Part shown: piece by piece, positions 37,926 through 63,497 of the stretch
How the letters are laid out: every line of letters starts with the position of its first letter
How positions within the stretch are numbered: the stretch's first letter is position 1
Translations under genes and position numbers: made by a program
Notes under the pieces: model-generated
Database searches by the model: none
What the model was told of the DNA's origin: nothing
The model's input: only the letters and a program-made list of their open reading frames with translations
IMG/VR virus record: IMGVR_UViG_3300033149_002633
Coordinates: 1-64,000 of that record
Length of the DNA: 64,000 bases
Source of the DNA: a virus
Strand: one strand, 5' to 3'

Positions 37926-39551
37926 ATGGATGACGAGATGCTACGTAAGTTAGCACAAGGGATGTTAAATGACCCAGTCCTTTTTGTTCAGAAAACCACT
38001 GGAAATATACCTTATTTTTATCAAGAAGAATTATTGAGATGTAATGATAGATTTATAGCAGCTTGTTGGGCAAGACAGTTAGGCAAAAGCTGGATAGTAA
38101 GAATGAAGGCAATATATCAAGCTTTCACTTATCCAGACCAACTTATCATAATCATTTCAGCTACTGAAAAACAAGCATTACATTTCTATCGTTTGTTAAT
38201 GAAGGAAATACAAGACTCTGATTTATTACGTAATGAGATAGCTAGATATACTAAAACTATGGCTGTTTTAAAGAATGGTAGCCAAATTATTTGTCTTGCA
38301 CCTTCAGAGAAATCAGTAAGAGGTTATTCTGCTGATTTAGTTATTATAGATGAAGCAGACTTTGTTGCCAGAGAAGTAATAGTAGCTGTAGAACAATGTA
38401 TTACAGCAAGATATGGTAAAATGATACTTATTTCTACTCCTTCTCCAGAAGGTATTGGTTCATTATTCTATCAATATTTTAATGATGGGTTAAGAGCTCA
38501 GAGAGAAGGATTGGTAGGAACTGATGAACATAAATTCAAGTATAGAGTTTTCCATTATACTTATGAAGTTGGATTACAAGTAACAAGAGTTGAACGAGGT
38601 CAAAGACGTACCCAATTAGACCCGCATATGATTGCTATCAAACGCAAGACCATGGCTGAATGGGAATGGAAAAGAGAATATATGGCAGAATGGGCTGATA
38701 GTGTAGGTACTTACTACAATAGACTACACATAGAATCTTGTACGGATAAAAATTATAGAATGATGGAAAATCAACTTGGGAAAGGAATGAAAGAATATAT
38801 AGGAGAGTTTGAATATTATTCAGATTGTATCTATTTTGCTGGTGCGGACTTTGCTAAACAGATAGACAAAACAGTTTTAGCTATTTGTAGAACTATGTCA
38901 GATGGAGGTTATAAGATAGTTTATTTCTTTGAAGCTCAAGGAGTAGATTATACAATACAAGGATATTATATTGTTAAAGCACTTGGCAGATATAAAGTTT
39001 CTATGGCTTGGGGAGATAAAAGCGGAGTAGGAGAGCCATTTATCGACTATATCAGTAGATTAGCTAGAGAAGACCCAGAATGTGATAACTTACAAAAAAT
39101 TGAACCAGTAGCTCTTACAAATCTAAAGAAGCAAGAAATCTTTGGTAATACCATTCCAATTGTAGCTCAACAACATATAGTGTTTCCTAACCATCCTCAA
39201 TTCTTACAAGAAATGATTTATCTTAAAAGAGAACTAACTCCAGAAGGAATGTTAAAAATCAACGGTCCCACTGAAATGGATGATATTAATGATGACTATC
39301 CTATGGCTTTTGCACTAATGATGATGTGCGAACTTAAGAGTAACTATTCCAGAGACTTTTTTGTTACTGCTACTCCACAATATGCAGAAATGATTAAAGA
39401 CGATAGGAGAAGAGATGCTTTTGGAGAAACAACTTCATTATATGACAAAGACGAAATGTCCTTTTTCTATACTCCAGATGGATTAGATAGTACTATGGCT
39501 TTTTCCTTTAATAGAGGAATAAAAAGAACGAGAAGTAGAAGATTATTCTAA
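37926..39551 (+). CDS. terL: Terminase large subunit
   Basis: YQ, ARQLGKS, RG...IIDEA, ISTP, REY.AE, GADFA, DKSGVG, DDYPMA. Confidence 0.97.
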   Translation: MDDEMLRKLAQGMLNDPVLFVQKTTGNIPYFYQEELLRCNDRFIAACWARQLGKSWIVRMKAIYQAFTYPDQLIIIISATEKQALHFYRLLMKEIQDSDLLRNEIARYTKTMAVLKNGSQIICLAPSEKSVRGYSADLVIIDEADFVAREVIVAVEQCITARYGKMILISTPSPEGIGSLFYQYFNDGLRAQREGLVGTDEHKFKYRVFHYTYEVGLQVTRVERGQRRTQLDPHMIAIKRKTMAEWEWKREYMAEWADSVGTYYNRLHIESCTDKNYRMMENQLGKGMKEYIGEFEYYSDCIYFAGADFAKQIDKTVLAICRTMSDGGYKIVYFFEAQGVDYTIQGYYIVKALGRYKVSMAWGDKSGVGEPFIDYISRLAREDPECDNLQKIEPVALTNLKKQEIFGNTIPIVAQQHIVFPNHPQFLQEMIYLKRELTPEGMLKINGPTEMDDINDDYPMAFALMMMCELKSNYSRDFFVTATPQYAEMIKDDRRRDAFGETTSLYDKDEMSFFYTPDGLDSTMAFSFNRGIKRTRSRRLF

Positions 39552-41692
39552 ATCTTCTCATCGTAATAAATCACTATTCTTCCAATTTTACAATGTATAT
39601 CATTTTTAGTCAATGTGCCAAGTGCTTGATTGTTTATATTTACAAATAGTTCTAATAAGTAAATACATCCATCGTCTGCATCTGAATCAGCAACACTATT
39701 CCAATTTCCAGTAAGTTCGAATTCTCCCCATCCATTATTAGCAGATGTTATTGCAGCTATTTGCTCACCATTTATTATTGTATATTTGGTACCATAGTAA
39801 GGTTGCGTAGCATTAGCATACCATTGATAGAGATAAACTTTAATTTCTATAGAACTTGTATCCCAATTTGCTGGTTCAATACAATAAGCATTTACTCCTA
39901 TTTTTATTCCTTTAAACGTAGTTTTAGATGATTTAATATCGATTTTGAATGGGGTTCTAAAGTATGCTTGACCTATACCATTATCATCTTTATGGAAATC
40001 TGGTAAAATAATATCACCAGTTAAGTCTCCAAAAGCATCTTCTTCTGTCATTGAGAAATTACAATCATAAGTATCGGATATTTTAATCCAGAATGGATAC
40101 TGAAAAATTGAAGCATTTATTGATGAGAAGCTTTGAGAACTTGCATCGTTAGGTGCATCTATACTACTGCTTATATAGTGCCAAGCTCCAAAACCACCAA
40201 GAGTGATAGATTTCGATGTTGTAGTTATTATTTCTCCATCAACATAAAGGTTTGTTGGTATTCTAACACCATTTAAACCACTTAATTCAAGCTCTGTATT
40301 AGCATTTATCTTTAAATCTCCATCTTCTCCAAATTCTATAATTGCACCAGAGACACTAATTTGTGATGAGTTTAGAACTATAGAGGTAGGACTTATAATG
40401 TTTATACCACTACCAGATAATGTCAAAGAACCAACAGTATTTTTGATGGAAGTATTAAGCTGGTTCATCTCAATATTTCCAGAGAAGGTAGCTAAGCCAG
40501 ATATAGTAATATCTCCGTTAATTGTTGCTCCACTATCTGCTGTTAGCCAATTTGTAGATATACCAGTGTCTCCATCAATAGTTACTGTTACATTACCAAG
40601 CGTATTAAAGGCACTTAATTGTCCAGCAGAAGAAATGTAAATGCTTGGATTTAAACCATAAGGAACTGAAAGTGTCTGGAATAAACCATTTTCAAATTCT
40701 GCACTTGAACCACTTACTGTTGTACCAGCAGTAAATTCAACTATTCCTCCACTCACATCATCTATTTCATTGACATAAATCTTTTTACCAGCAGTGATGG
40801 TCACATTATCATTAAGCGTAATTGGTGCTCCAGAAATTGTTATTGAAGTATCAAAGTCTATATAGCTTCCATTTTGAGCTGTTATTTTATTAGGGTCAAA
40901 AATCATAGAGTTTAATGAGAGAGATGTAGCGTTGTCTAAAATAATTGTATCAACAGCTAATGAACCACTAACTATTAGGTTATTTTTTATGAGTGCATCA
41001 TTATCTGCTGTAAAATTATATACGTCTATATTATTAGAACCTAAATCTACATTATAATTAAATGTAATACCAGAAGTATTGAACTCAGCAATAACTTCTC
41101 CCTTATATGATTTTATACGAACACTATAACTGTTTTTTGCTATTATATCATTTACTCTTGTTTCTGGATATCCAGTAGTATGAACATTTATAATACTACT
41201 AATATCTAAAGTTGTTTCTGCTCTGGTATAGGTAGCTAATAATATTTCATCATCTTCTATAGTATCAGTTATAGCTTTTTCTACTAATACAAAACTTTCG
41301 TTTTCTACTTCTCTTAAATTTCCATCTATTTGCCAATCATCAGCGGACTCAAGTATTTTAGCTACAAGTAATCTATTACCACTTGTTACAGTTCCACTTA
41401 ATTGTGTAGTAGTAAAGTCTTCTGATGACGCTTGTCTTAACCATCTACCATTAATCATTAAGTTTCCAGCAGCTAAATGAATAGTAGAATCGGTATTAGT
41501 AATCTCACAACCATTTCTAATCCTTGATAATACACCAACATCCATCATATCTTCTATGATACGTTGGGTATTCTTGAAAACTGACTGGTCAGAGGTTAGA
41601 GCTGACCATTTGATATTCTCAATAACAATAGGTGATTGTTCTACTATATCACTTTCCGTTATATGTTCCTTAGATAATGTTTTATATGACAT
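39548..41692 (-). CDS. Baseplate-attached tail fibre / receptor-binding protein
   Basis: Follows baseplate genes; beta-rich S/G/T/N repeats. Confidence 0.7.
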   Translation of the reverse strand: MSYKTLSKEHITESDIVEQSPIVIENIKWSALTSDQSVFKNTQRIIEDMMDVGVLSRIRNGCEITNTDSTIHLAAGNLMINGRWLRQASSEDFTTTQLSGTVTSGNRLLVAKILESADDWQIDGNLREVENESFVLVEKAITDTIEDDEILLATYTRAETTLDISSIINVHTTGYPETRVNDIIAKNSYSVRIKSYKGEVIAEFNTSGITFNYNVDLGSNNIDVYNFTADNDALIKNNLIVSGSLAVDTIILDNATSLSLNSMIFDPNKITAQNGSYIDFDTSITISGAPITLNDNVTITAGKKIYVNEIDDVSGGIVEFTAGTTVSGSSAEFENGLFQTLSVPYGLNPSIYISSAGQLSAFNTLGNVTVTIDGDTGISTNWLTADSGATINGDITISGLATFSGNIEMNQLNTSIKNTVGSLTLSGSGINIISPTSIVLNSSQISVSGAIIEFGEDGDLKINANTELELSGLNGVRIPTNLYVDGEIITTTSKSITLGGFGAWHYISSSIDAPNDASSQSFSSINASIFQYPFWIKISDTYDCNFSMTEEDAFGDLTGDIILPDFHKDDNGIGQAYFRTPFKIDIKSSKTTFKGIKIGVNAYCIEPANWDTSSIEIKVYLYQWYANATQPYYGTKYTIINGEQIAAITSANNGWGEFELTGNWNSVADSDADDGCIYLLELFVNINNQALGTLTKNDIHCKIGRIVIYYDEKI

Positions 41693-41704
41693 TTTTATTT
41701 ACTC

Positions 41705-42406
41705 CTATATTACTATTGGCTGTAATGTTATTTTATATCTTATGCCTAAAGGTCTCACTTCATCTACTACTTGTTTAAGTAGGACTTTCTTTTCTTCTTG
41801 ATTCCAATATTGATAATAATCCCTATTTTGAATAGAATTACTTGTTGTTCCACTAACCAATTTTATAATTATTTCAGCACCATAAATTTCTCCTTCTAAA
41901 GATGACCAATAACCTATTTCTAATCCATTATAGGTACTTCCCCAATATGAAGTAGAGCCACTACTTACATCATTCCAATAAGATATCAAACCACTCAATC
42001 TTGGTTCATTTATAATTATCCTATTAGTTTCTGACCACCCCTCATAACCAAAAGCTCCTTCTCCTATAAAATCATATATTACTCGTTTTATACTATTTTT
42101 ATTTCCCCCTCCTTCAAATGATTTCCAATAAGTAGAAGCTCTAATAGCTAAACTTTCACTATCTTCCATAGGAAATTCATAAACTCCAAAATATTTAGAT
42201 GCATCTGTTAAAACCCAATCACTGGCATTAACAACTAATTTTTCTTCATTTCTAATATCTTGTCTTATATTTTCAGTATCTACAGCACAAGATATAGCCA
42301 TCATAAATTTATAAATGACACTATCTTCATTACTGACAAAAGATTGTGGTAGATAATTCCACACACCACTACTAACTATCTCACTAAAATCTTTACTCCA
42401 TGCCAT
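41705..42406 (-). CDS. Baseplate wedge protein (P2 gpI / Mu gp48-like)
   Basis: Directly after baseplate J; YLP, E..E.L..R, ends VRPLGIRY. Confidence 0.75.
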   Translation of the reverse strand: MAWSKDFSEIVSSGVWNYLPQSFVSNEDSVIYKFMMAISCAVDTENIRQDIRNEEKLVVNASDWVLTDASKYFGVYEFPMEDSESLAIRASTYWKSFEGGGNKNSIKRVIYDFIGEGAFGYEGWSETNRIIINEPRLSGLISYWNDVSSGSTSYWGSTYNGLEIGYWSSLEGEIYGAEIIIKLVSGTTSNSIQNRDYYQYWNQEEKKVLLKQVVDEVRPLGIRYKITLQPIVI

Positions 42407-44718
42407 TATCTCACCTTAGGTACTGCTGTACTGTCTATTCTAAATAATGATGCTACTTCTGTTTTCCAGATTTGGTAATCTACAGAGGCATTATTTGTTC
42501 CACTAATAGGCATCATTACCATGAAACGCATAGGTCGAGGAGTTATTTCCCATGAACCACTTGTAGCAATATAAAACAATTCTCCAGAAATAGGTCTATC
42601 ATACCATGCATTAGTTCCTAAAAATAGAGAACCACTTGCACTTACACCAGAGACTACTACCCAATGTTTTTCATCTCTTTGTGTTACGGTTAAAACATCA
42701 TCGAACTCTACAAAATAATCTTGTGCTATACTACTATCTAACGTTATCGTACCAGATGTTAAAAGGTCAGTGGGTCCAGAATTTGTTCCAGACCAAACAG
42801 AGACAGAAACTTGGTCTCCTATTGTCCCAGATAGATTTACTACTACTCCTACTATTTTATCATATTCATAGTTCTCGTAAATGAATAGTAAATCTTCTCC
42901 ATCTTGTAATGAAGCTTCATTACTACCAGATATACTATCAACTATAGTTATTGAAGTTGGAGTATGGCTGTCATAATAATTATTGACATATAATGGGTTG
43001 CGTATCCAGTTACCGTCATTATCTTGTAAAGCACGATAAACCAATGGAGTTGAAACTGTAACCCCAGTTATATTTGACCCACTCATTACATAGGTATTAG
43101 AGCCAGATACATATTGATAAACATCTGAATATGATTTAGTTCCCATGTAAAATTGTTGAGCAAAACGAGTTCCACTTGCTGTTCCAGCTCCACTACCTAA
43201 ATCTATCACATATTCTAATCCATATGGAGTAAATTCATAGGTTGAAATATAGAATTTATTTATTTGTGTAGAATAGACTCCTATAACATTCATCGATACA
43301 TCCATTAGCTTTGAATAAACTACATCTTCTCCTATTTTCAAATCAGCAATATAATCATTTATCTTGTTCTCTACATTCAGTAAGATATTATTTCTATCAT
43401 GCCAATATCCATCATCTGGCATAATAGACAAATCAAGATAAACATATTTAAACGTAGGATGATAAATTGTATGTCTTGTACCTACTGGTTTCTTTTCTTT
43501 TATTACTTCTTCAACTCTATTGATAGTATTGATATTAGTTATCTGTTTATTATCTCCGAGAATAAATACTTGGATATAGCTTTCAGCAATAAAAGGTTTG
43601 TTTTCTATATCATAGACTTTACATTCTGCTATACCTTCTATACTTTCTATTGCTCCTTCTATGGCACTATAAGTTGCTGAACCTTGTTTTAATGAAGCGT
43701 TCAAAATCCTTGAACGCAATTCTTCATCTGTTTCTCTATCCGAACCATTATTGAAATAATTCTGTTGTCCTAAATGGGTAGGAGGATTAAAAACTCTAAC
43801 ATTACTTTCTTCAGTTGTTAAAGAACTATCAGTCCATATTTTTGTTATGGTCATTGGTGCAACATTTTGGGAAGCACCAGTTGTAGTAGCTCTAACTGTT
43901 ATATATCCCGTTTTTCCAGCTTCTAATGTGATAAATGATGTTGGTTGAAAAATAGCGGACTTATCTACTGTAGAAAATCTATGAGAAGCTGATACTGTAA
44001 AACTTTCTGTCGAACTTTGATTTTCTATATACAAATATCCACTTGTATAGGTAGACTCTCTTCTTACTACTCCCCATGGATATGCTAATTCATCTAATGC
44101 ATCTCCATCAGCAGTTCTAACAAAACTATCTAAAAAGTTATCATAATTTTTAGCATCAACATTCGCTAAGACCATTGAGATAGCTTCTATTATAGTAGTT
44201 AGAACTGTTCCATCACTAAAATTATTAGCATCACAAATCTTACTACTATCAAAATACTTGTAATTAATTCTAAACAAAGTTCCGTCTTTCGGATGATAAC
44301 CAGAAGTGGTATTCCATCTTATAGCATTATACATTGGCTGTCCATGATAGACTGAACCAGAAGATGAAACATTCATCCTTGACCCACTCCAATATAACCA
44401 GTAATTAACACTCGGGTCATCATCTGTTGGAGGATTATAATATTCACTATCTTGTAATATTTGTCCTCTTCCTTGTTTCCATGCATCTACACCCTTAAAA
44501 GAACCTTCTAAAGGAACCCAATTTCCATCTTCATTTATCCCTTCTACTGAAAGGATTTCTACAATTGTTGGGTTAGTTGCAGAAGCTCCACTAAGAATAT
44601 ATATATCATTATCATCACTATAAACGTATTCCTCGCTCTCAATTAAAACTATACCATCTCTTAACTGTTCTATGATTTGTTGTTTAATCTCTGAAGATGT
44701 TCTTGGATTATAAGACAT
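42406..44718 (-). CDS. Baseplate J-like protein with extra N- and C-terminal domains
   Basis: TADGDALD, G..R, GSDRETDEELRSR, GSAT..AIE, KPVG. Confidence 0.92.
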   Translation of the reverse strand: MSYNPRTSSEIKQQIIEQLRDGIVLIESEEYVYSDDNDIYILSGASATNPTIVEILSVEGINEDGNWVPLEGSFKGVDAWKQGRGQILQDSEYYNPPTDDDPSVNYWLYWSGSRMNVSSSGSVYHGQPMYNAIRWNTTSGYHPKDGTLFRINYKYFDSSKICDANNFSDGTVLTTIIEAISMVLANVDAKNYDNFLDSFVRTADGDALDELAYPWGVVRRESTYTSGYLYIENQSSTESFTVSASHRFSTVDKSAIFQPTSFITLEAGKTGYITVRATTTGASQNVAPMTITKIWTDSSLTTEESNVRVFNPPTHLGQQNYFNNGSDRETDEELRSRILNASLKQGSATYSAIEGAIESIEGIAECKVYDIENKPFIAESYIQVFILGDNKQITNINTINRVEEVIKEKKPVGTRHTIYHPTFKYVYLDLSIMPDDGYWHDRNNILLNVENKINDYIADLKIGEDVVYSKLMDVSMNVIGVYSTQINKFYISTYEFTPYGLEYVIDLGSGAGTASGTRFAQQFYMGTKSYSDVYQYVSGSNTYVMSGSNITGVTVSTPLVYRALQDNDGNWIRNPLYVNNYYDSHTPTSITIVDSISGSNEASLQDGEDLLFIYENYEYDKIVGVVVNLSGTIGDQVSVSVWSGTNSGPTDLLTSGTITLDSSIAQDYFVEFDDVLTVTQRDEKHWVVVSGVSASGSLFLGTNAWYDRPISGELFYIATSGSWEITPRPMRFMVMMPISGTNNASVDYQIWKTEVASLFRIDSTAVPKVR

Positions 44719-46350: not shown

Positions 46351-49300
46351 CTATGCATAATAACACTGTAATAACGGAGGACTATATTCTAAGTATCCAG
46401 CAGTAGCAACTATTGATACTATCTTTATTGTAACCATATGATATATGGAAACATCAATAGCAGTAAATGTTTCTGTTTTTAAACCAATAGTATTGTATTC
46501 AGCACTTGTATATATCAATGGAATTCCAGTATCTGTCATACCATAAATATAAACTCTACAATAATTTGAAGTATCAGCATCAGAAACTGACAATTTTAAT
46601 CCACTTATGTATAATTTAAGAGCACCTTTTGCAGTAGGTAAAGGTAAAACCCAATAAGTCGAATAATCTGTTCCCCCTTCATTACCTACACGACCATTCG
46701 TAGCTTTGAAATATAAAGCTCCAGTACTTTCCATATAATATGGACAAGGTACCCAAGCTGCGTTAGCTGACCCAAACATGACAAAATCAGAAAGTTTCTT
46801 AGTTGAACCTCCATTATAAAACTCAAAATCATTATTAGCAGTAACAGTTTTATTAAAATAAAACTTAGGTATATCAGTATTAGTATTAAAATGACACCAA
46901 TTAGCATTTTGTGGTCCTATATCTACATAACCATTAGTTGTTTTTACTCTGGTTACACCAGTAGTTTGTATCCTTAAATAACCACTTGAACCACTATGAA
47001 TTAAGAACAATGCACCACTATTATCATCACTTTTAGTACTAATATTCCAATAACCAACTCATCTCTATAAATATTTACTTTATCATTTGAAGCTCTTAAA
47101 ATAACATCTTCTCCACTTGCACCAGCAGTACCATCATTAGCTCTTAACTCTACATAACCATTAGCAGTACGGTTACATAAAGCAACTACTTTGTTAGTAG
47201 AATCAAAGAATAAACCATATCTTGTATCAGTATCTCCAGTCGGTTTATAGGTTATACCATATTGAGCACTTTCCATAAAAAAGTCTATACCCGTTTTATC
47301 AATATCTATTAATTTTGTATTATCACTATCCCCGTCATATAAAGTTAAATAATGACGACTATTTTTAGCAGATATCTCTAAAGCTTTTTTAATATACGAT
47401 GTACCATAATTTTCTAAATAAACTTCTAATCCAAACCCGTTGCCTCCATCTTCTGCATCTTGAGCTCGTGTTCTTAACCAAGACAAAACGGTATAATTAG
47501 TTGAATTATACCAAGCATTTCCTTTCAAAGTTAATCTTGGACTATATGCATCAGCATCAGTAGTTGTATTTACAAGAACGAAACCATCTGTAGCAATAGT
47601 TTTTTTAATAACTATTGCATCAGATTCTTCCATCATTATACTATCAGTTAAAACACCAGTACTTTCCCATTTAGGGATATAACCAGTGGTTACATTAGTA
47701 CCTTGTGAAATATCTCCAGTTCCAGCATCTCCATTTATCCAATTTCCAGTTCCACTATCATATACAAGCACTTGACCATCAGAAAGGGATGATATATTTA
47801 CATCACTTAAATCGTCTAAAGCGTGGGTATGACTTATAGAAGCATATTTAGAACTTAAAGAAGCTCCTCCTTCATAGATAGTTCCAGAAACTGATAAATC
47901 TTCGATTATATCAACACTATTATCAAATAAAGCATCTCCACCTACTTCTAATCCATAACCAGTAGATACACTAGTACTACCTCGATTTATACTTGTTATT
48001 CCAGTTAGCCATTGTCTATCATCATAAATATAAGCACCAACACTCCCATCATTTCCTTTTATCATTAAACCATCAGTCAATGGAGCAATGATTCCACCAT
48101 TAGTTGGAGGAGAGCCTATTGTTATAGTATTAGTATTAATAATATCATTAGAATAAATTGTAGCCCATCTTTTATTACTTGAACCTAAACCAGCTATATT
48201 ATCAGAATATGGTGTTATATTTCCATTTACTGCTACATTATTTCCAAACCAAAAACCACTATTTGCATCTGTTGTTAAATGAGCATATGTTGTATTACCA
48301 GCTCCTATTCTAATAGTTTTACCAGATGTAGCATTATAAATACCTAAAGAAGCTCCATAACCACTATCATCTGGTTGTAAAGTAATATCTAATGCGTCAC
48401 TTAATAATATACTTTTACTAATTAATTTATTCCATCTGTTTGATGTTGTTCCTAAATCAGCTCCTCCATCAGTATAAGGTCTAAATAATTTATTAACATA
48501 CATAGCATAGGGAGTTATAACTAAAAAATTATCCCATGAAAAAGTATTACCAGCTGTTCCACTTACTGCTACTTTTAAGTAAATTTCTCCATTACAACCT
48601 TCAAAATTTTGCTCGATAGCAGTTGCACCATTATTAGTTGTCTCATAAATATAACCACTGTTATAATAACAACCTCCTCTAAAATTCCAATTTCCACCCC
48701 CATCATTACAAGTAATCTTTTTTATTCCCTTACCAGAATCTCCAGTATTATCCATAGAAAGATAGGCAGAACCATGTGTTAGTTTCAAATGTTGTGCAGA
48801 AATAGTTAATGTGTTAGAAAAGTTCCAACTACCACTTATTGTTTCATCTTGACCTAAATGAGCGTATTGTGGGTGGTCATCATCATTCAAACCTAATAAA
48901 TTACCATGGTCAATAGAAGATTCAGTAAAGTGAATGCTACTGTCAGATATATGATTGTCTATATCTGTATGAGAATTAACTCCTATATTTTTTAAATCAT
49001 TATGGTCTATACCAACAGTTGAGCCACTGAAAGATACTGAACCACTAAAAACTGTTGAACCACTAAATGTCCAATCTCCAGTAATAGTTTCATTCTCACT
49101 TAAAGCTGCAAAATAACTACTATCATATCCGTCTAAAGTATCGGCGTTTAATCCTACCTCATCTACTGCAATAGTTAAAGTGTTAGCTACATCATCATAA
49201 GTTAATGAGATGTTACTACCAGCTACTAACAGATTACTTACTCTATCATCAACCCGTTCATCAGTATAATATAGATTTGTTGTTCCTTCTACTATATTGT

Positions 49301-50666
49301 CTGTTGTCTTTCCAGAGAGCCATGTATCAGCTCTTCCGTCAGTATGGTATTGGGGATGGTCGTCATCTGTTAAACCAGCTAAATCTCCATGGTCAATTAT
49401 GTTAGGCTTAGTATATTCTATTGAGAATGTTGTTCTAACGTCTATCCATGCATCGCTTGGGAAAGGAGGAAGTTCAGTATCTCCTTCTTGTGTTATAAGA
49501 GCTATTGATTTAGGTAAAATACTTAATCCATCTGGTATATTAGGTAAAGCACCATTTACAGCATCAGCAAAGTTGTTGAAATATTCTTGTGGATAAATCC
49601 AATGAATTTCAGTTGGAGAAACAATAAACAAGCTTTTAACATATTTATTAACTGGTAAAGCAGCTAAACCAGTTCCAGTATCATAATTAACAGTGTCTAT
49701 TGTAGAACTTGTATCAGAAACCCAGTTACCAGAAGCGTCATGATACCATCTTCTTATCAGTGTTACTGTACTATCTATTGATGGTACAGTAACTTTAACA
49801 TTCATATTTTCATAATATTCTCCACCATCTGTTTTAACTGCTAAAGCTGTAACACCTTGTGGCTCTACTATTAAACCTTTCTTAACAAATTCTGGGAATA
49901 AATCTTTAAGAGCTTTAAACCCATCATTAAACGCAAATGATACACTATTCTCTTGATGTATCCTATAAATACTACCATTGACACATGATACTCTACCAAG
50001 TAGAATATGGTTAAAATTAGGAAAAGTAGTAGATACTTGAACACCTAATCCTTCATTGGCATAATCTATATACAGATAATTTACTGCATTATCTGTTAGA
50101 GTTGCTGAACCACTTTCAAAGCTTTTTACATCATTACTATATATGTTGTTATAATGACCTTCAGTCCATGATATAGTCAATCCTCCAAGCGAACTTAATT
50201 CTCCTCCTTGAAGGAGCCAATTAGGTGTAACATGTTCAAACATGTCATGGACTGTATGAACTGTTGAACCATCACTATCATAATGATGTGCTATTAATTT
50301 TGCACCAAATCCATCTCCAATAGAATATAAATCAGCTCTTAAAGTAGCATCCGAAGAACCAGAACCCCATTCCTCAAAAGGTCTAGCTACACCACTAACT
50401 ATAGCATAAACATTATTTTCATTAGCAAAAATACCGAATTTTGTTCCAGTTAAAATAGTATCCTTAACATTTCCTAAAGTTCCAGAACCAAATCCAATGA
50501 CTACTTTGTTAGCATCGAATTCTATAAAACCACTACTACTATCCCATGTTTTTCCACTTAATACTCCAGATGAAGTAAGCTCGTAACCATCTATATCTAT
50601 AAATAAAGCTGAATAAGCTTCATTTGCTCCACTTGTAATATAGTCTGATGATATATAAAATGTCAT
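46351..50666 (-). CDS. Long tail fibre, split by a frameshift near 47040-47060
   Basis: DH..L.GL.DDDHPQY repeats, EGTTNLYYT..RV, HTH.LDDLSDV; downstream ORF continues fibre motifs in the -1 frame. Confidence 0.8.
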
Positions 50667-57664: not shown

Positions 57665-57701
57665 TATAAAAAAGAGAATAAAAATTAAAAAGTTTTCTTA
57701 A

Positions 57702-58292
57702 CTATGTCCCAGTATATGTTTCATTATTAACTATGTCAGAACTCATAAGACTATAATCATATTCTCCTTCAAGCTCCATAATAGTGAATTCTCCTTCTCT
57801 GACTTCTTTAACTCGTCTGGTAAATTTCACGTTATAAAGTTCATCCATATAGCCAGTTCTAACATTACGGATTTGAATTTTGAAAGAATAAGGTACAAAA
57901 TATTTAGTATCAGAAAGAATAAAAGGTATAGTATCGTCACCACTAAATAAACCGTCTATTATAAGGGAGCTATTTTCTGGCGTAATCTCTTCTCCAGAAG
58001 AAACAAAAGCACCAAGAGCATATTGTATAATACCCATATTGATAGCAGTAGGTTTAAGAGTACATCTAAGTATTCCTCTAAATCTTGTAGTTCTACTATC
58101 TATACGAAATTTTGAACCTATACCTCTAGCTTCTTTTAATTCTTCACTATCTTCATATCTTATAGTTTCCATTCTTCCTATATTGAATTCTACTGTTGAA
58201 CCCGCAATCTTAGCATCTGGAACAATAAATTTGAGGATGATATCATCCCCAAATTCTGTGCTGAATTTTTTAACACTTGCATCATAACTCAT
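57702..58292 (-). CDS. Tail tube protein
   Basis: Directly after sheath; IGRMETI, RGIG, L.NVKFT. Confidence 0.8.
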   Translation of the reverse strand: MSYDASVKKFSTEFGDDIILKFIVPDAKIAGSTVEFNIGRMETIRYEDSEELKEARGIGSKFRIDSRTTRFRGILRCTLKPTAINMGIIQYALGAFVSSGEEITPENSSLIIDGLFSGDDTIPFILSDTKYFVPYSFKIQIRNVRTGYMDELYNVKFTRRVKEVREGEFTIMELEGEYDYSLMSSDIVNNETYTGT

Positions 58293-58303
58293 TTTTCTTC
58301 ACC

Positions 58304-59614
58304 TCATAATGATAATGTAGCAGTTAAATCTATTACAACTTTCAAAGTCTCGAACACTGGAACAAAGACTATTTTACATCTCATAATGTTATTAACCTCA
58401 TCTTCAGCAGAAGCATAGACTTTAGTACCAAAATTCTTTATCATTCCTTCGTTCTTACGTTGTGTTAATTTATCTCTAATAGCACTATTAGCTGAAGCTC
58501 TTGAAGAAACAGTATTAGCTTTAAATAAGTATCGTCTCATAATACTACGAGCATCTTTAGCAAGAGTATCCATGATTTGTCTTGTAGTTATCAAAGTTGG
58601 CATTTCATTTCCATTAGCATCTTCTGGTTTATCAGTAACAGTAAATAACCAACCTCTATCGAATGACCAGCTTTCAGCTCCACCAGAAACCCATCTACGT
58701 GGAAACAGAACATGGTCATTCCACATACTTTTTAACTTAACATTATTTAATGCAGCTTTATTCTTGTTACCTTGATAAGATGGAGTCCAATCAGAGATAT
58801 AGCTTAATGGCACATGAGCATCTTGACTTGATAATTTCCCAGCTATATAAGCTGCTAAGAAATTACCTCCAATCTCATGAGTACCAGATGACCATAATTC
58901 TCCAGACCATAAATGACTGTCAGTAATATCTCCAGTAGCATAAGTAAATTTCCAAGTAGTATTAGCTACAACACAAATAACTCTACCATTATCATCTTTT
59001 AAATTAGAAGCTATGCTGGGTAATGAATAAGACATATCTGAACCAGAGAAAGCTCTATTCCAAGATACACCAGTAACATAAACCCTTTCCTTTCCTTCTT
59101 CTCGACTTGATGCTGTTAATACTTCTGATTTAACTGTAGCGATAGGTTCATAACCAGCAAGAACAACGTAATAGACATCATCAAAAGCTCTTAAAGCTTG
59201 AAGTGCTTCAGTTAATCCATCTGGAGTAGTAGTAGGTCCAGCTCCGCTACCAGATAAAACACAACCATAAACCCTTTTAGCTCCACCAGCAAATGCTAAT
59301 TCTACTGCTCTCATAAAATTAGTTGAAGGGTCAAAAGGTGCTTCGCCTAAAGCTCCACTACCAAAAGTGCCTACACTCCAGTCATCTCCAGTAGCAAGTC
59401 CCATCTTATTTTTAAAGTCAAGGATATTTTCATAAACAAATACAGTACCTACTTGTCCATTAGCAAATTTGTCATTATCTTGAAGGTTATAATCAGCAGA
59501 CCCAGATAACATATGACCAATGATAGCGACATATCTTCCAGTATCTACTGCAGAAGGCGATATACCTTCCGAACTTTGTTCTACATATACACCAGCAAGA
59601 GTATAATTGCTCAT
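58304..59614 (-). CDS. Contractile tail sheath protein
   Basis: AGVYVEQ, AIIG, AF.GGA, AYIAG, ITTRQIMD, F.PV...K.V. Confidence 0.92.
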   Translation of the reverse strand: MSNYTLAGVYVEQSSEGISPSAVDTGRYVAIIGHMLSGSADYNLQDNDKFANGQVGTVFVYENILDFKNKMGLATGDDWSVGTFGSGALGEAPFDPSTNFMRAVELAFAGGAKRVYGCVLSGSGAGPTTTPDGLTEALQALRAFDDVYYVVLAGYEPIATVKSEVLTASSREEGKERVYVTGVSWNRAFSGSDMSYSLPSIASNLKDDNGRVICVVANTTWKFTYATGDITDSHLWSGELWSSGTHEIGGNFLAAYIAGKLSSQDAHVPLSYISDWTPSYQGNKNKAALNNVKLKSMWNDHVLFPRRWVSGGAESWSFDRGWLFTVTDKPEDANGNEMPTLITTRQIMDTLAKDARSIMRRYLFKANTVSSRASANSAIRDKLTQRKNEGMIKNFGTKVYASAEDEVNNIMRCKIVFVPVFETLKVVIDLTATLSL

Positions 59615-59652
59615 AAGTTAAACTTCATTTGATGAATATAAAAGCTTTATCC

Positions 59653-60375
59653 TCACCCACTTCCAGAGACTGTACCAGAAGCAACCAGATTATCATAAGT
59701 AGTACCACTTGCTGATGAATAGACTTCATAAACAATTTCTCCAATAAGATAAATATTAGGTTCTACTTTTGGAACTATTCTAACATCAGCATTAATAAGA
59801 GCCAAAACTTCTCTACGATAGATAGTATCAACTCCTACATGATAAGATACATCTTTGATATATCTATCAGTTTGGTCATAACCTATCAGCTCTGAACCTA
59901 TAACCCTAATATTCCTTATACCTTTATCATACATATCATTAACATATGGAGAACTGGCATATCTAAGAAGATTTTGTAATTCCCAATCAATCATATCTCT
60001 AATCATAGTATTAGAAGTCCAAATATCAAATCTTACTAAGAATTCATATTCACCACCATAGACTGCATCATAACTACCAGAAGCAGCTATACCAGAAGCA
60101 GTATCAGTATAATCAAACAGAAAATTACCAATATATCTATTACGTTCTACTTCTTTCTGAATAGTAACAATGATAGAAGGTAAATGCATATTTTCTGCTT
60201 TTTGATAATCTCCCCAACACTTTATTTCAGCTGGAGTTGAACCAGACGTAACTAAGATAGTAGAAAGGTTATCTCTAATATATTGGACAAGATGAGCTTT
60301 TAAAGCATCACCAGCTAAACCTAATCTCCCTTCATAAGGAGAAAGAACTGCACCATTATAATCTTCCCAACTCAT
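59653..60375 (-). CDS. Tail terminator / completion protein
   Basis: LPSIIV, FDIW...RD; sits before sheath. Confidence 0.75.
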   Translation of the reverse strand: MSWEDYNGAVLSPYEGRLGLAGDALKAHLVQYIRDNLSTILVTSGSTPAEIKCWGDYQKAENMHLPSIIVTIQKEVERNRYIGNFLFDYTDTASGIAASGSYDAVYGGEYEFLVRFDIWTSNTMIRDMIDWELQNLLRYASSPYVNDMYDKGIRNIRVIGSELIGYDQTDRYIKDVSYHVGVDTIYRREVLALINADVRIVPKVEPNIYLIGEIVYEVYSSASGTTYDNLVASGTVSGSG

Positions 60376-60974
60376 TTCGCATCATCCCATGATTTGACTA
60401 TAATTCTCTTACTATCTATTAAGAATTCTCCTAAAGTAGCAAGTTTAAGAGGTCTCTTTCCAGATTTATCCCATTGAACTATATAATCAATACTAACTTT
60501 TAATTCCCCTTTTCCAGTAGTCGAAAGTCTTTCAGTAATAACAGACACTTTTCCTATATTGGCACTAACTTGACCTATGTCAATCGGACTAATAGATGAA
60601 CTCCAAGAAACATCAGATGACCTACCTATACCTCCTCTTGCTATTCTTTTTATAGCTCGTTCAGCAGCTCCAGAAAAATACATCGCCTCTGGAATATAGG
60701 GGTCAGCATATCTTCTATAATATTTTTCTGTCTCTGGTTTTCTTGATATAAATCCATAACTTTTATAAGTTCCATATGCTCCCATTAAAACATTATGCAT
60801 TTTTTTAGCTGTCTCAGCACCTAAATTATTTATAAAATCTTTAAAAGTGTCATCTAATAATGATAGAGAACCTCTATTATAAGTAATTTTAAACTGAAAT
60901 TTTAAATCTTTGAATTTGTTTGAGAATTGTCTCATAATTTTATTGACAATATCTCGTTTAGTCATACTTACCAT
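60372..60974 (-). CDS. Basic neck / tail completion protein
   Basis: Position; RP motif near C-terminus. Confidence 0.5.
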   Translation of the reverse strand: MVSMTKRDIVNKIMRQFSNKFKDLKFQFKITYNRGSLSLLDDTFKDFINNLGAETAKKMHNVLMGAYGTYKSYGFISRKPETEKYYRRYADPYIPEAMYFSGAAERAIKRIARGGIGRSSDVSWSSSISPIDIGQVSANIGKVSVITERLSTTGKGELKVSIDYIVQWDKSGKRPLKLATLGEFLIDSKRIIVKSWDDAK

Positions 60975-61015
60975 ACTAAATAAAAAAAGGGAAAAAAGTA
61001 TTAAATCTTTTCTTC

Positions 61016-62179
61016 TTATCCGACATTCGTTATCACATCAGCTAGTTTTTTAGCAGCTGATTGCCATGACCATTGTTTTATGTCTTCAAGACCTTTGTCA
61101 GCCTTCCTCTTAAGTATATTAGGATTATCTACTACATATCTCATTGTTTCTCTGATTTCTTCAATAGAAGGAATAGCCCATTTTAGACCATGAATAGGAG
61201 CATACCAATTAGCTCCATCAGTCATTCTCATCTCTTTTGGATTTATTAAAAATGAATTCCCATCATTCATATAATCGAGATGACCGCCATATCTTTGTGC
61301 TATCGATGGAACACCACAAGCCATAGACTGAATATAAGGCAATCCCCAACTTTCTCCTTTACTTACCAGTATAAAACAATTAGCAGAATTGTAAAGTTTC
61401 CTCATTCCTTCTTCAGTGAGCATCTGACCATGTACTACAACATTTGGAGGATTAATAACATTCATAGTATAGCTTTTATTCTTGATGGAATTTACAATAT
61501 TAATCATAGTTGGAAAAGTATTATCTCTACCATATGTCTTTATAATTAAAATTACATCATCGTCTCCAGAGAATTCCTTATAATAAGCCTCTAACATCTC
61601 TTCAAATCCTTTTCTTCTTATCCATTGACCAACACATAAGAAGACAAAAGTATCATCACCAAACTTATATAATGGGTCGTTTTTATCTGGAAAATAAATC
61701 TTAGTATCTACACCATGAGGGACAATATGAATTTGTTTATCAATAGGTTCTTTTCCAGACATTACTTTCATAGTTCTATTGTACAAATCCAAAGAGTTGT
61801 GTATAGATTGTTTGCAAAATTCAGTATTAGTAATATATTCATCGTATGGTTCTATATAGTTTAGCCATGATGGTGGTAAGTAATCTAATTCCCATACAAA
61901 TTTTAACAAGTTTCTTTTATGGTCTGGAGCTGGTGCTGAAGCAAACACTGGAGGAGTACCATACCTTAACAATGGAACATCTTTACTATATTCAGCATTT
62001 AGCATATCATTGAAAATCTTTGTCTCTTCTGAAGTAAGCCTAATTTGCATTACATCCATCTTTCTCTCATAAAGACTAACCTTTATTCCTTCATCAACTA
62101 ATCCAAGTAGTAATTTTCTAGCTGCATAAGCATAACCACTTGGAGCAAATACAGTTGTATCTATTCTTACATCTACCAT
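61016..62179 (-). CDS. Glycosyltransferase, GT4 (GT-B fold)
   Basis: SGY, VPHGVD, RKG, GESWGLPYIQSMACGVP. Confidence 0.93.
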   Translation of the reverse strand: MVDVRIDTTVFAPSGYAYAARKLLLGLVDEGIKVSLYERKMDVMQIRLTSEETKIFNDMLNAEYSKDVPLLRYGTPPVFASAPAPDHKRNLLKFVWELDYLPPSWLNYIEPYDEYITNTEFCKQSIHNSLDLYNRTMKVMSGKEPIDKQIHIVPHGVDTKIYFPDKNDPLYKFGDDTFVFLCVGQWIRRKGFEEMLEAYYKEFSGDDDVILIIKTYGRDNTFPTMINIVNSIKNKSYTMNVINPPNVVVHGQMLTEEGMRKLYNSANCFILVSKGESWGLPYIQSMACGVPSIAQRYGGHLDYMNDGNSFLINPKEMRMTDGANWYAPIHGLKWAIPSIEEIRETMRYVVDNPNILKRKADKGLEDIKQWSWQSAAKKLADVITNVG

Positions 62180-62180
62180 T

Positions 62181-63497
62181 TTACATCACCAAATGAACTT
62201 TAGTATTTATTTTATCAAATATAGGTTTCCACATTTTTTCTACTACTTCCCAATCATAGTGTTTAACTGCCCATTCTCTCGCTTTTTCTCCATGTATCTT
62301 AGCTAATTCTGGAGCCATGTAGTATTTTTCCATTGCTTTAGCAAATTCTTTTACATCTACCCATGCTTTCTTAACTCCACACATTTCCATATATAGTCTG
62401 CTTGGTGGGACTAATGTACCTCTTAGGTCTTCTGGTTTGACATATTTCCCATTATCACCAATAGCCATGAATTCAGTAGAAGTAGTGTAATCAGTTAGAA
62501 TGTTAGGAAGACCACAAGCCATAGCTTCAACAATAGGTATTCCAAATCCTTCTCCACCAGTAGGTAATACATGAACATCGAAAGCATTGTACAATAAAGA
62601 CATATCAGCTTCTGGGATACCATTTATATAACTATATGTCTTGTTTTGAGGATTGAATTGTGGAGTTATAATTACATTGTTAGCAATACCTCTAACTTCT
62701 ATTTGTTCAAGGAAGAAATAATCATGATTAGGGTCTCCAATATATAGAGCATCTTTAGGGTCAAGATGTAGATATAAGTAACAATTCTTTCTTCTCTCTT
62801 CATCTTTCTCAAGGAAAATCCTAAATGCCTCAAGCAACCTCATATGGTGTTTTCGTTTGTTTAATCTTGCTACACAACCAAAGATAAAAGCTTCATCTGG
62901 GTCAATAGGTAATCTTATTCCTAACTTTGCAAAAATTTCTCTTCTTGCAACTTTCTTGTTTATTGGAGAAAAGAGTTTTGTATCTACACCATGAGGAACA
63001 TATTCAACACTAATACCTAATTGTTTTCTTGTTAATGCTTGCCCAAAACGTGACATCGCAACTCTTACATCAGCTCTTTTTATGACACTGGCAATTTGTG
63101 TATTAATTGGGTCTCCATCTAATGGGTAATAACAAATCCAGAATGGTCGAGGTTTCATAGCCAATACATCAACCATATGTGCGTCTCCTTGTGTAAATAT
63201 AGCATCTGGTGATATTTTCTTAAAGAAATTATCATAACTATCTTTTCCAAAAGCTGCTCTACCTTCTACTCCATGTATCTTAAAGTCAAATCCTTTAATC
63301 TCTGGATTACCTCTGGTTTGCCAACCAAGATAATGAACATCCCATCCCCATTTAACAGCAAAACTAGCTATCTTACTGCATTGTACAGCAAATCCAGTCG
63401 GATAGTAAGGACTGTCACTTGCAAATCCTATAACTGGTTTTTTTATAACCTTCATTTGTTCTTTTATCTTTACTTCTGGTTTATTATGTCTTGACAT
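62181..63497 (-). CDS. Glycosyltransferase, GT4 (GT-B fold)
   Basis: PTGF, VPHGVD, R..RK, GEGFGIPIVEAMACGLP. Confidence 0.95.
   Translation of the reverse strand: MSRHNKPEVKIKEQMKVIKKPVIGFASDSPYYPTGFAVQCSKIASFAVKWGWDVHYLGWQTRGNPEIKGFDFKIHGVEGRAAFGKDSYDNFFKKISPDAIFTQGDAHMVDVLAMKPRPFWICYYPLDGDPINTQIASVIKRADVRVAMSRFGQALTRKQLGISVEYVPHGVDTKLFSPINKKVARREIFAKLGIRLPIDPDEAFIFGCVARLNKRKHHMRLLEAFRIFLEKDEERRKNCYLYLHLDPKDALYIGDPNHDYFFLEQIEVRGIANNVIITPQFNPQNKTYSYINGIPEADMSLLYNAFDVHVLPTGGEGFGIPIVEAMACGLPNILTDYTTSTEFMAIGDNGKYVKPEDLRGTLVPPSRLYMEMCGVKKAWVDVKEFAKAMEKYYMAPELAKIHGEKAREWAVKHYDWEVVEKMWKPIFDKINTKVHLVM

What the first reader, a model, noticed from the sequence alone, without database searches (positions are those of the whole stretch)
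39548..63497. Candidate virion glycosylation system: Ser-Gly enrichment in virion proteins plus two GT4 enzymes inside the neck genes
Seen: manual Ser-Gly dipeptide counts are about 19 in baseplate J (770 aa), 14 in the 714-aa fibre, 8 in the sheath (436 aa) and 7 in the tail terminator (240 aa, ending ASGTVSGSG). By contrast there is about 1 in PolB (902 aa), 1 in TerL (541 aa) and 5 in the primase-helicase (1190 aa). In baseplate J, 14 lie in the last ~270 aa and none in the conserved ~280-aa core. Two GT4 glycosyltransferases sit between the head-closure and tail-completion genes. Established: Ser-Gly is the eukaryotic glycosaminoglycan attachment site, and some phages glycosylate their virions. 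Inference: the virus has accumulated SG acceptor sites on exposed surfaces for O-glycosylation, giving a glycan coat for stability, shielding or host attachment.
Basis: partly seen in the sequence, partly recalled or inferred. Interest (0 to 1): 0.85.

Follow-up and report, generated by a model that had tools for sequence, protein, structure and literature searches.

The report
Ser-Gly tag on virus tail proteins
The outer tail, neck and head-decoration proteins of this uncultured, probably archaeal, tailed virus and its relatives carry a conserved Ser-Gly-(Ser/Thr/Ala) motif about twice as often as chance allows. The virus's own sugar-transferase gene travels with this motif, so it may be a sugar-attachment site, but no chemistry has tested that.

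Summary

**The signal**
- In the virion proteins, Ser-Gly (SG) is the top outlier of about 300 dipeptides: 119 observed against 57 expected, z 8.3.
- The same holds in two relatives at only 45-60% identity (observed/expected, O/E, 2.1 and 2.4). Non-virion proteins show none of it (O/E 0.7-1.2).
- The motif is directional: S-G-[S/T/A]. SGT:TGS is 81:8.
- TG, NG, DG and the N-x-S/T sequon are not enriched.

**Explanations excluded**
- Composition, local composition, paralogy and DNA-level constraints do not explain it.
- These genomes contain no GATC, CAGG or CCTG at all, so Pro-Gly cannot be encoded. A shuffle that respects this still gives 47±6 SG.
- Five comparison virus sets give only 0.8-1.5.

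**Where the motif sits**
- SG-rich: fibre, baseplate J extensions, spike, sheath, a neck protein and a capsid cement-like protein.
- Not SG-rich: major capsid protein, portal and tube.

**Link to the glycosyltransferases**
- Both GT4 genes are core and syntenic in the clade.
- The one with a canonical E-x7-E motif (GT_B) also appears to co-occur with SG-rich sheaths in two more distant relatives. It was not seen for three SG-poor ones. This rests on indirect matching and small numbers.

The glycosylation reading is plausible but unproven. The glycosaminoglycan analogy fails, because acidic residues are depleted beside SG. Excess SG sites are old and conserved, not still accumulating. This scan has noted similar SG tags on other phage DNA before.

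The parts
62181..63497 (-). GT_B: soluble GT4 glycosyltransferase (438 aa) with the canonical E-x7-E motif (EGFGIPIVE at 316). Candidate initiating protein O-glycosyltransferase.
   Evidence: PF00534 at 64.9 bits, phrog_2170 at 1e-30. E-x7-E is conserved in orthologues and there is no TM segment. 57-61% identical in all clade members. 40-49% orthologues occur on contigs whose length and source match SG-rich distant sheaths. A TTTAAATA box lies about 26 nt upstream.
61016..62179 (-). GT_A: paralogous GT4 (387 aa, 27% identical to GT_B) with a variant E-x7-Q motif. Candidate second-sugar transferase or helper subunit.
   Evidence: PF00534 at 50.1 bits. Alignment to GT_B shows GESWGLPYIQ. Best PDB hit is chlorovirus GT B736L, 3oy2, 1e-6. 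The orthologue in relative G1 carries an intein just after ...QSMA|C. The family is found only in the immediate clade.
59653..60375 (-). 240-aa neck/tail-top protein, SG-rich (7 observed, 1.7 expected). Its C-terminal tail carries 2-4 SG[S/T] motifs in every orthologue.
   Evidence: No Pfam, PHROG or PDB match.
58304..59614 (-). Tail sheath (436 aa), 8 SG against 3.7 expected. All lie in loops, five of them directly after a beta-strand. None lies in the last 125 residues, which hold the conserved C-terminal domain.
   Evidence: PF17482. AF2 pLDDT 81, pTM 0.85. Foldseek hits to contractile-system sheaths at 1e-14. SG positions. Distant homologues are compared.
42406..44718 (-). Baseplate J-like wedge protein (770 aa) with N- and C-terminal extensions. 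19 SG against 5.8 expected, 14 of them in residues 501-770.
   Evidence: PF04865 at residues 205-472. Seven homologues at 45-50% identity have 16-20 SG each, and 7 SG pairs are invariant.
39548..41692 (-). 714-aa fibre-like protein, 14 SG against 5.7 expected. Typical context is a hydrophobic strand followed by SG.
   Evidence: Divergent orthologues (25-31% identity) keep 12-13 SG.
47001..50666 (-). 1221-aa spike/fibre protein with a weak endosialidase-like stretch. 23 SG against 12.5 expected, including SG-x4-SG-x4-SG runs.
   Evidence: Counterparts in G1 and G2 have 20 and 28 SG against 11.1 expected.
41705..42406 (-). 233-aa baseplate-distal protein, mildly SG-rich (4 observed, 2.2 expected; 5/1.6 and 4/1.1 in relatives).
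63542..64000 (-). 172-aa neck-region gene that runs to genome position 64060, just past the window end. Not SG-rich. It marks the upstream border of the GT pair.
   Evidence: weak match to phrog_1004, virion structural protein.

Best explanation
The window is the first 64 kb of a complete 79-kb tailed virus genome with a contractile tail and archaeal-type replication genes.

**Proposed mechanism**
- Two soluble GT4 glycosyltransferases lie in the late structural operon.
- They work in the cytoplasm on newly made virion proteins.
- They attach a short O-linked glycan to the serine of S-G-[S/T/A] motifs, which sit in loops, often right at the end of a beta-strand.
- The target proteins are on the outside of the particle: fibre, spike, baseplate J extensions, the sheath outside its conserved C-terminal domain, a neck protein's C-terminal tail, a capsid cement protein and a 283-aa head-module protein.
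- GT_B is the likely initiating enzyme. It has a canonical E-x7-E motif and is more widely distributed.
- GT_A, with E-x7-Q, is found only in this clade. It would add a second sugar or act as a helper.
- Accessory enzymes would trim or decorate the glycan in some members: a sulfotransferase in this genome, and methyltransferases, a sulfotransferase and a sugar epimerase/dehydratase in a relative.

**Shown here**
- The motif, its specificity, its conservation and its distribution among proteins.
- The identity and conservation of the GT genes.

**Inferred**
- That the GTs act on proteins, and that SG-serine is the acceptor.
For: - **Size and specificity of the excess.** SG is the rank-1 dipeptide in virion proteins of three genomes (O/E 2.10, 2.08, 2.37; z 7.3-9.9) and unremarkable in their other proteins.
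- **Directional, Ser-specific motif.** SGT:TGS is 81:8 and SGA:AGS is 36:6. TG, NG and DG are near 1.
- **Selection at amino-acid level.** Both serine codon families are used at SG (AGT 55%, TCT 43%).
- **Stronger purifying selection on SG-serines.** This holds in virion proteins only.
- **Not a fold requirement.** More distant sheaths replace the conserved SG positions and have O/E 0-1.4.
- **Not paralogy.**
- **Not DNA-word avoidance or Pro-Gly replacement.**
- **Not general to tail proteins.** Comparison viruses give 0.81-1.47, and the T4 long tail fibre genes gp34-37 give 0.96.
- **Distribution fits exposure.** A cement-like decoration protein has 8 SG against 2.0 expected. The major capsid protein, portal and tube are at chance.
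- **The GTs are core genes.** They are soluble, syntenic and among the better-conserved module genes. One carries an intein beside its catalytic motif.
- **A relative carries more sugar chemistry.** It has a 7-kb sugar-modification cassette inside the head module.
- **Co-occurrence beyond the clade.** GT_B orthologues match the contigs of the two SG-rich distant sheaths that lie on long contigs. No match was seen for three SG-poor ones.
- **Precedents.** Phage GTs modify capsid and tail-tube proteins (Freeman 2023, as cited in PMC11600133). Serine-but-not-threonine glycosylation at an N-S-G-G site occurs in TibA (PMC4358343).
Against: - There is no chemical or structural link between the GTs and SG.
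- The co-occurrence test rests on matching contig lengths and sources. It has 5 cases against 3, is confounded by phylogeny, and used a hit list cut at 120 of 745.
- SG sites not shared with a relative are at chance (O/E 1.05). The signal is therefore a set of old, fixed positions, which a structural role would explain equally well.
- The most exposed protein, the major capsid protein, is not enriched.
- A phage with a homologous GT4 cassette between its capsid and neck genes (phiPsal1) has no SG excess (O/E 1.16).
- Soluble GT4 enzymes also build lipid-linked or cell-wall glycans.
- Exposure was judged only from secondary structure and domain position. The baseplate J model was poor (pLDDT 56).
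Confidence: 0.45

Rival explanations
1. S-G-[S/T/A] is an unmodified structural or assembly motif: a strand-ending turn inherited from the common ancestor of this virus group and kept by purifying selection. The GT pair does something else, such as remodelling host envelope or lipid-linked glycans late in infection, or glycosylating virion proteins at other sites.
For: - The whole excess comes from positionally shared sites. Private sites have O/E 1.05.
- In the sheath model all 8 SG lie in loops, five directly after a beta-strand.
- The link between GT_B and SG-rich sheaths is confounded by shared ancestry.
- phiPsal1 has a similar GT cassette without any SG excess.
- GT4 family matches are to polysaccharide and glycolipid enzymes.
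Against: - A generic turn motif should also enrich NG, DG, TG or the mirror tripeptides. It should also appear in non-virion proteins and in other viruses' tail proteins. None of this is seen.
- The motif spans unrelated folds with no detectable paralogy.
- Distant sheaths manage without it.
- In the 240-aa protein's poorly conserved C-terminal tail the motif is kept while its position shifts.
Confidence: 0.3
2. The SG-serine accepts a different modification, made by a host enzyme or another viral enzyme. Examples are phosphorylation, sulfation or a host O-glycosylation pathway. The GT4 pair is only coincidentally nearby.
For: - Serine specificity and virion-only conservation point to a modified residue without naming the chemistry.
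- The genome encodes a sulfotransferase-family protein (PF13469, genome 71532-72431).
- It also encodes two-component signalling proteins.
Against: - The sulfotransferase is accessory: relative G1 has no orthologue.
- The GT pair is universal in the clade.
- No Ser/Thr protein kinase family was found among the proteins scanned.
- GT_B tracks SG-rich sheaths beyond the clade.
Confidence: 0.15
3. The SG excess is an artefact of amino-acid composition, low-complexity regions, codon or restriction-site constraints, or repeated domains.
For: - Virion proteins are richer in Ser and Gly.
- The genome has extreme DNA-word avoidance that does reshape dipeptides. There is no Pro-Gly at all, and NCA codons never precede GGN.
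Against: - Block shuffles, mirror tripeptides and a constraint-aware codon shuffle all leave a 2- to 2.5-fold excess.
- Where distant homologues have Pro-Gly, this clade has Ala-Gly, not Ser-Gly.
- There is no paralogy or internal repeat at E 0.05.
- The result replicates in two genomes at 45-60% identity.
Confidence: 0.03

Closest known systems
Mycobacteriophage virion glycosylation (Che8, Corndog and Myrna type; Freeman et al. 2023, Cell Host Microbe 31:1216). Known here only through citing papers PMC11600133 and PMC10877033; the paper itself is not held.
   Same: Virus-encoded glycosyltransferase genes lie in tandem beside methyltransferase-type accessory genes and modify structural proteins of a tailed virus. 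Here the cassette also lies inside the head-neck-tail module.
   Different: - The reported targets there are capsid and tail-tube proteins. Here the major capsid protein and tube are not SG-enriched, while fibres, baseplate, sheath, neck and cement protein are.
- No SG-type sequon is known to me from that system.
- The host is probably archaeal.
- Homology of the GTs to the mycobacteriophage enzymes was not tested.
Bacterial autotransporter heptosyltransferases TibC/AAH acting on TibA/AIDA-I (PMC4358343)
   Same: This is cytoplasmic O-glycosylation of beta-rich surface proteins on serine but not threonine. One mapped site, Ser-313, is in an N-S-G-G context. That parallels the Ser-only, strand-end SG motif here.
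   Different: - The enzyme is an ADP-heptose-dependent heptosyltransferase, not GT4.
- The substrates are bacterial adhesins with 19-residue repeats, not virion proteins.
GtfA/GtfB O-GlcNAc transferase pair of serine-rich-repeat adhesins (PDB 4pqg and 5e9t are weak hits of GT_B)
   Same: Two adjacent GT4-type paralogues, one with intact and one with altered catalytic motifs, act in the cytoplasm on serines of a surface protein.
   Different: - The similarity is only generic GT4 (E 4e-4).
- The acceptors there are long Ser-rich repeats, and none is present here.
- Whether GT_A is inactive is unknown.
Chlorovirus-encoded capsid glycosylation machinery (GT B736L, PDB 3oy2, is the best solved relative of GT_A)
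   Same: A virus-encoded soluble GT4-type enzyme from a virus that builds its own virion glycans independently of host secretory glycosylation (from established knowledge).
   Different: - Chlorovirus glycans are N-linked on the major capsid protein at atypical sequons.
- That virus is a giant eukaryotic virus.
- The match is only E 1e-6.
Eukaryotic glycosaminoglycan attachment at Ser-Gly by xylosyltransferase
   Same: The Ser-Gly dipeptide. A sulfotransferase is also present in the genome.
   Different: - Acidic residues are depleted rather than enriched next to SG.
- The residue after SG is S, T or A.
- No GT14-type enzyme or UDP-xylose synthase was found among the proteins of this genome that were scanned.
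- The resemblance is superficial.

Membership tests
GT4 / Glycos_transf_1 retaining glycosyltransferases | Pfam PF00534 match above the gathering score | tested here: met
   GT_A scores 50.1 bits and GT_B 64.9 bits, against a cut-off of 26.4. Both also match phrog_2170.
GT4 / Glycos_transf_1 retaining glycosyltransferases | E-x7-E motif in the C-terminal domain | tested here: inconclusive
   GT_B has EGFGIPIVE, conserved in orthologues. GT_A has E-x7-Q (GESWGLPYIQ) in this genome and in G1. The effect on activity is unknown.
GT4 / Glycos_transf_1 retaining glycosyltransferases | Two-Rossmann-domain GT-B fold | not tested
Phage-encoded virion glycosylation system (mycobacteriophage type) | GT genes encoded by the virus within or next to the structural module | tested here: met
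   The GT pair lies between the 172-aa neck-region gene and the 200/240-aa genes upstream of the sheath. It is syntenic in all relatives.
Phage-encoded virion glycosylation system (mycobacteriophage type) | Glycans demonstrably attached to virion proteins | not testable with these tools
   This needs virions or recombinant proteins and mass spectrometry.
Phage-encoded virion glycosylation system (mycobacteriophage type) | Acceptors on capsid and tail-tube subunits | tested here: not met
   Taking the SG motif as a proxy, the major capsid protein has 1-3 SG against 1.2-1.3 expected and the tube 0-2 against 0.7-1.3. Enrichment lies in other proteins.
Glycosaminoglycan-type Ser-Gly sequon (xylosyltransferase) | Acidic residues flanking Ser-Gly | tested here: not met
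   E and D are depleted at position -1 (0.45 and 0.48 of background) and D at +1 (0.31). The +1 position is S, T or A.
Glycosaminoglycan-type Ser-Gly sequon (xylosyltransferase) | Xylosyltransferase-type enzyme and a UDP-xylose supply | tested here: not met
   Only GT4 enzymes were found. No sugar-nucleotide enzyme was found among the proteins of this genome that were scanned. Relative G2 has an NAD epimerase/dehydratase of unknown specificity.
TibC/AAH-type serine-specific protein glycosylation | Serine but not threonine used as acceptor | tested here: inconclusive
   The sequence statistics fit (SG O/E 2.1, TG 0.93), but no modification has been mapped.
TibC/AAH-type serine-specific protein glycosylation | Heptosyltransferase-family enzyme | tested here: not met
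   Both enzymes are GT4. No heptosyltransferase family appeared in the scans.
GtfA/GtfB serine-rich-repeat glycosylation | Long serine-rich repeat acceptor domain | tested here: not met
   No internal repeats or Ser-rich repeat domains occur in virion proteins.

The most novel reading that the evidence does not exclude
A soluble virus-encoded GT4 enzyme reads a short, serine-specific, directional sequon, S-G-[S/T/A] at strand ends, and uses it to sugar-coat selected outer virion proteins of an archaeal tailed virus lineage. Notes from this scan report similar Ser-Gly tags in several unrelated GT-rich bacterial phages. If those hold up, the SG tag would be a widespread, previously unrecognised sequon for virion O-glycosylation across tailed viruses of both prokaryotic domains.
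Probability: 0.35. Interest if true: 0.8.

Novelty: new variant of a known kind. Interest (0 to 1): 0.62.

Why it matters
Virion glycosylation by virus-encoded enzymes has been shown for only a few tailed phages, and no acceptor sequon has been defined there.

A short, predictable Ser-Gly-(Ser/Thr/Ala) tag would have several uses:
- Glycosylated virion proteins could be recognised from sequence alone.
- It would help explain why glycosyltransferase genes sit inside structural modules of many uncultured viruses.
- It would give a compact enzyme-plus-tag pair for protein glyco-engineering.

For archaeal tailed viruses it would be, to my knowledge, the first indication of self-encoded cytoplasmic virion O-glycosylation.

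Even if the glycan link is wrong, the motif needs an explanation. It is virion-specific, serine-specific and conserved.

Tried and rejected
**Explanations tested and rejected**
- Composition and local composition.
- A DNA motif. Both serine codon families are used at SG.
- Restriction-word avoidance. The constraint-aware shuffle gives 46.7±6.1 against 119 observed.
- Replacement of the unencodable Pro-Gly. The clade uses Ala-Gly at those positions, and some SG-rich distant sheaths still contain Pro-Gly.
- Shared paralogous domains or repeats.
- A general property of tail or fibre proteins.
- N-x-S/T sequon enrichment: 0.8-1.0 of expectation.

**Steps that led nowhere**
- Scans with distant-sheath alignments found nothing in viral contigs or genome contigs. 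Two alignments were too diverse to scan with.
- The single-protein sheath scan found nothing.
- The major capsid protein alignment found no provirus in genomes, so no host was identified.
- The GT_B alignment scan returned only the same five contigs.
- The genome search 'relatives' is not available for virus records.
- The AF2 model of baseplate J was too poor to map exposure (pLDDT 56).
- PDB profile searches for the 202-aa and 240-aa proteins found nothing usable.
- Freeman et al. 2023 is not held in the library.
Full report
**What the DNA is**

The window is the first 64,000 bases of a 79,254-base virus record with a 114-base terminal repeat, so the genome is probably complete. GC content is about 31%.

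It encodes a head-neck-contractile-tail module on the minus strand, running from 39.5 kb to 69.4 kb:
- Tail end: fibre, baseplate J, spike and a probable tape measure.
- Tail body: tube, sheath and neck genes.
- Inside the neck region: the two glycosyltransferases.
- Beyond the window: a 283-aa protein, the major capsid protein, a 202-aa protein, a protease-like protein and the portal.

The family B polymerase matches archaeal-type DNA polymerase I models over its whole length (E 4e-131). An XPB-like helicase is also present. GT_B has a TTTAAATA box about 26 nt upstream of its start. Other readers of this genome also took it for an archaeal virus. I consider an archaeal host likely but could not identify it.

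**The observation**

Pooled over the virion proteins of the whole genome:
- SG occurs 119 times against 56.7 expected from each protein's own Ser and Gly content.
- It is the strongest outlier of 306 testable dipeptides (z 8.3). The next best reaches z 3.1.
- In the other proteins of the genome it is 38 against 31.

The excess survives:
- shuffling within blocks of 20 to 100 residues;
- a composition-free mirror test. Over three genomes, SGT outnumbers TGS 81 to 8, and SGA outnumbers AGS 36 to 6.

The motif itself:
- The residue after SG is Ser or Thr in half of all cases (each about threefold enriched) and Ala 1.8-fold.
- Charged residues and Pro are depleted just before SG.
- Hydrophobic strand-like residues often precede it.
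- TG, NG, DG and AG are at chance.
- The N-x-S/T sequon is not enriched.

**A DNA-level trap, checked**

While checking codons I found that NCA codons never precede GGN. The cause is that this genome and both relatives contain no GATC, no CAGG and no CCTG at all, against 105-330 expected of each. CTAG, GANTC, GGCC and CCGG are also strongly depleted.

As a result Pro-Gly cannot be encoded. There is not one Pro-Gly among 728 prolines. DNA constraints therefore do shape dipeptides here, so I built a codon shuffle that forbids creating these words.
- It gives 46.7±6.1 SG (maximum 65) against 119 observed.
- Where distant sheaths have a conserved Pro-Gly, this clade has Ala-Gly, not Ser-Gly.
- Some SG-rich distant sheaths still contain Pro-Gly.
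- AGT and TCT, which cannot interconvert by one mutation, share the SG serines.

The selection is on the amino acids.

**Relatives**

Seven full-length baseplate J homologues at 45-50% identity each carry 16-20 SG (O/E 2.4-3.5), and seven SG pairs are invariant.

Two related virus contigs of 80 and 85.6 kb were fetched whole.
- In each, SG is again the rank-1 dipeptide of virion proteins (O/E 2.08 and 2.37) and unremarkable elsewhere (0.69 and 1.22).
- The same proteins are enriched in all three genomes: fibre, 233-aa protein, baseplate J, spike, sheath, the 240-aa neck protein, the 283-aa protein and the 202-aa protein.
- The major capsid protein, portal and tube are not enriched.

The 202-aa protein resembles phage cement (decoration) proteins by language-model features and by predicted structure. 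That fits an external location.

Conservation:

| Protein set | Ser within SG conserved | Other Ser conserved |
|---|---|---|
| Virion proteins | 54% | 37% |
| Non-virion proteins | 14% | 30% |

SG sites that are not shared with a relative occur at chance (80 against 76.5). The excess is therefore a set of old, maintained positions, not continuing accumulation. In the poorly conserved C-terminal tail of the 240-aa protein, the motif is kept while its exact place shifts.

**Is it just what tail proteins look like?**

| Comparison set | SG O/E |
|---|---|
| Phage D6E, structural module | 1.47 |
| Clostridioides phage CD1801 | 0.81 |
| Exiguobacterium phage vB_EauM-23 | 1.27 |
| T4 long tail fibre genes gp34-37 | 0.96 |
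| Methanobacterium virus PhiF1 (archaeal myovirus) | 1.34, rank 11 of 300 |

There is no detectable paralogy or internal repetition among the virion proteins.

A profile search with the sheath found more distant full-length homologues.
- The nearer ones are SG-rich (O/E 1.7-2.8).
- The farther ones are not (0-1.4) and replace the conserved SG positions with other residues.

The sheath fold does not need the motif.

A confident sheath model (pLDDT 81, pTM 0.85), confirmed as a contractile-sheath fold, places all eight SG in loops, five directly after a beta-strand. None lies in the last 125 residues, which hold the conserved C-terminal domain. I infer that this domain builds the inner layer. 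The baseplate J model was too poor to use.

**The glycosyltransferases**

Both are PF00534 proteins without membrane segments. They are paralogues at 27% identity.

GT_B:
- It has the canonical E-x7-E motif.
- It is most like virus-encoded GT4 clusters.

GT_A:
- It has E-x7-Q.
- Its best solved relative is chlorovirus B736L.

Both genes are present, adjacent and 55-61% identical in every relative that covers the region. In one relative GT_A carries an intein inserted just after the catalytic-motif region. This is the kind of site inteins occupy in conserved, needed genes.

A second relative has a 7-kb insert between the 285-aa SG-rich gene and the major capsid protein gene. It encodes two SAM methyltransferases, a sulfotransferase and an NAD sugar epimerase/dehydratase. 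The present genome has a sulfotransferase-family gene at 71532-72431.

**The with/without test**

I therefore matched contig length, number of contigs and source between protein hit lists.
- GT_B orthologues at 42-44% identity lie on contigs of 41,382 and 53,987 bases. Their sources match those of SG-rich sheaths P0019 and P0017.
- SG-poor sheaths P0026, P0031 and P0028 lie on contigs of 82,525, 86,925 and 24,900 bases. No GT_B homologue with those lengths appears among the best 120 hits.
- GT_A is confined to the immediate clade.

So SG-rich goes with GT_B in 5 of 5 cases and SG-poor in 0 of 3. The method is indirect, the hit list is truncated, and the two groups are also phylogenetic groups.

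One counter-example to any universal rule is Pontimonas phage phiPsal1. It has a GT_B homologue, a methyltransferase and a GT2 between its major capsid protein and neck genes, yet no SG excess (O/E 1.16).

**Reading**

The most economical account is that SG-serines at strand ends on outer virion proteins are acceptor sites for a short O-glycan. GT_B would install it in the cytoplasm. GT_A and accessory enzymes would extend or decorate it.

The closest working analogies:
- Mycobacteriophage virion glycosylation, known here only through citing papers.
- Serine-only heptosylation of TibA at an N-S-G-G site (PMC4358343).

The proteoglycan analogy does not hold, because acidic residues are depleted beside SG and the enzyme family is different.

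A purely structural motif, or a different modification, remains a serious alternative. I put the glycosylation-at-SG reading at about 0.45.

**Relation to earlier notes of this scan**

The same stretch was noted from a second window, which supplied the sulfotransferase lead that I confirmed. Several other phage genomes in this scan were reported to have Ser-Gly excesses on outer virion proteins together with glycosyltransferases. I did not test those. They suggest the pattern recurs, but they are not independent evidence for the mechanism.

Noticed in passing
whole window and genome; relatives L010-L018: This genome and both relatives contain no GATC (about 250 expected), no CAGG and no CCTG (105-160 expected each). 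CTAG, GANTC, GGCC, CCGG and GTAC are also strongly depleted. As a result Pro-Gly cannot be encoded: there is none among 728 prolines, and a conserved L-P-G-V-Y of sheath homologues has become L-A-G-V-Y. This is an extreme case of restriction avoidance rewriting protein sequence.
   Followed up: partly
L015:6874-8886 (-), relative G1: The GT_A orthologue is 670 aa because an intein of about 296 aa (PF14890) is inserted directly after ...GESWCLPYMQSMA, beside the catalytic E-x7-Q motif. The same relative's PolB is 1209 aa against 902 aa here and may also carry an insert.
   Followed up: partly
L013:1230-7604 (relative G2, record 61230-67604): A 7-kb cassette lies between the SG-rich 285-aa gene and the major capsid protein gene. 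It encodes two SAM methyltransferases, a sulfotransferase, an NAD-dependent sugar epimerase/dehydratase and three unknown proteins. It looks like a glycan-tailoring island inside the head module.
   Followed up: partly
L001:9532-10431 (-) = genome 71532-72431, beyond the window: A sulfotransferase-family protein (PF13469, E 2e-10), 27% identical to the one in relative G2 and with no orthologue in G1.
   Followed up: partly
L001:4010-4618 (-) = genome 66010-66618, beyond the window: The 202-aa protein between the protease-like gene and the major capsid protein gene resembles phage capsid cement/decoration proteins (Phage_cement families; TM 0.54-0.58). It has four invariant SG pairs.
   Followed up: partly
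window 37482-37841 (-) and 37504-37872 (+): A 119-aa ORF with 23.5% serine lies antisense to a 122-aa plus-strand ORF just upstream of the large terminase gene. The plus-strand ORF is the more likely gene (perhaps the small terminase), and the Ser-rich frame is probably not real.
   Followed up: no
window 31251-32108 (-) and L001:11158-12654 (+): The virus encodes a CheY-like receiver protein and a hybrid histidine kinase with its own receiver domain, which is unusual cargo for a tailed virus. Other readers noted this too.
   Followed up: no
L039:6979-9351 (Pontimonas phage phiPsal1): A cultured actinobacterial siphovirus has a GT4, a SAM methyltransferase and a GT2 exactly between its major capsid protein and neck genes. 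The placement matches that seen here, but its virion proteins show no SG excess.
   Followed up: yes
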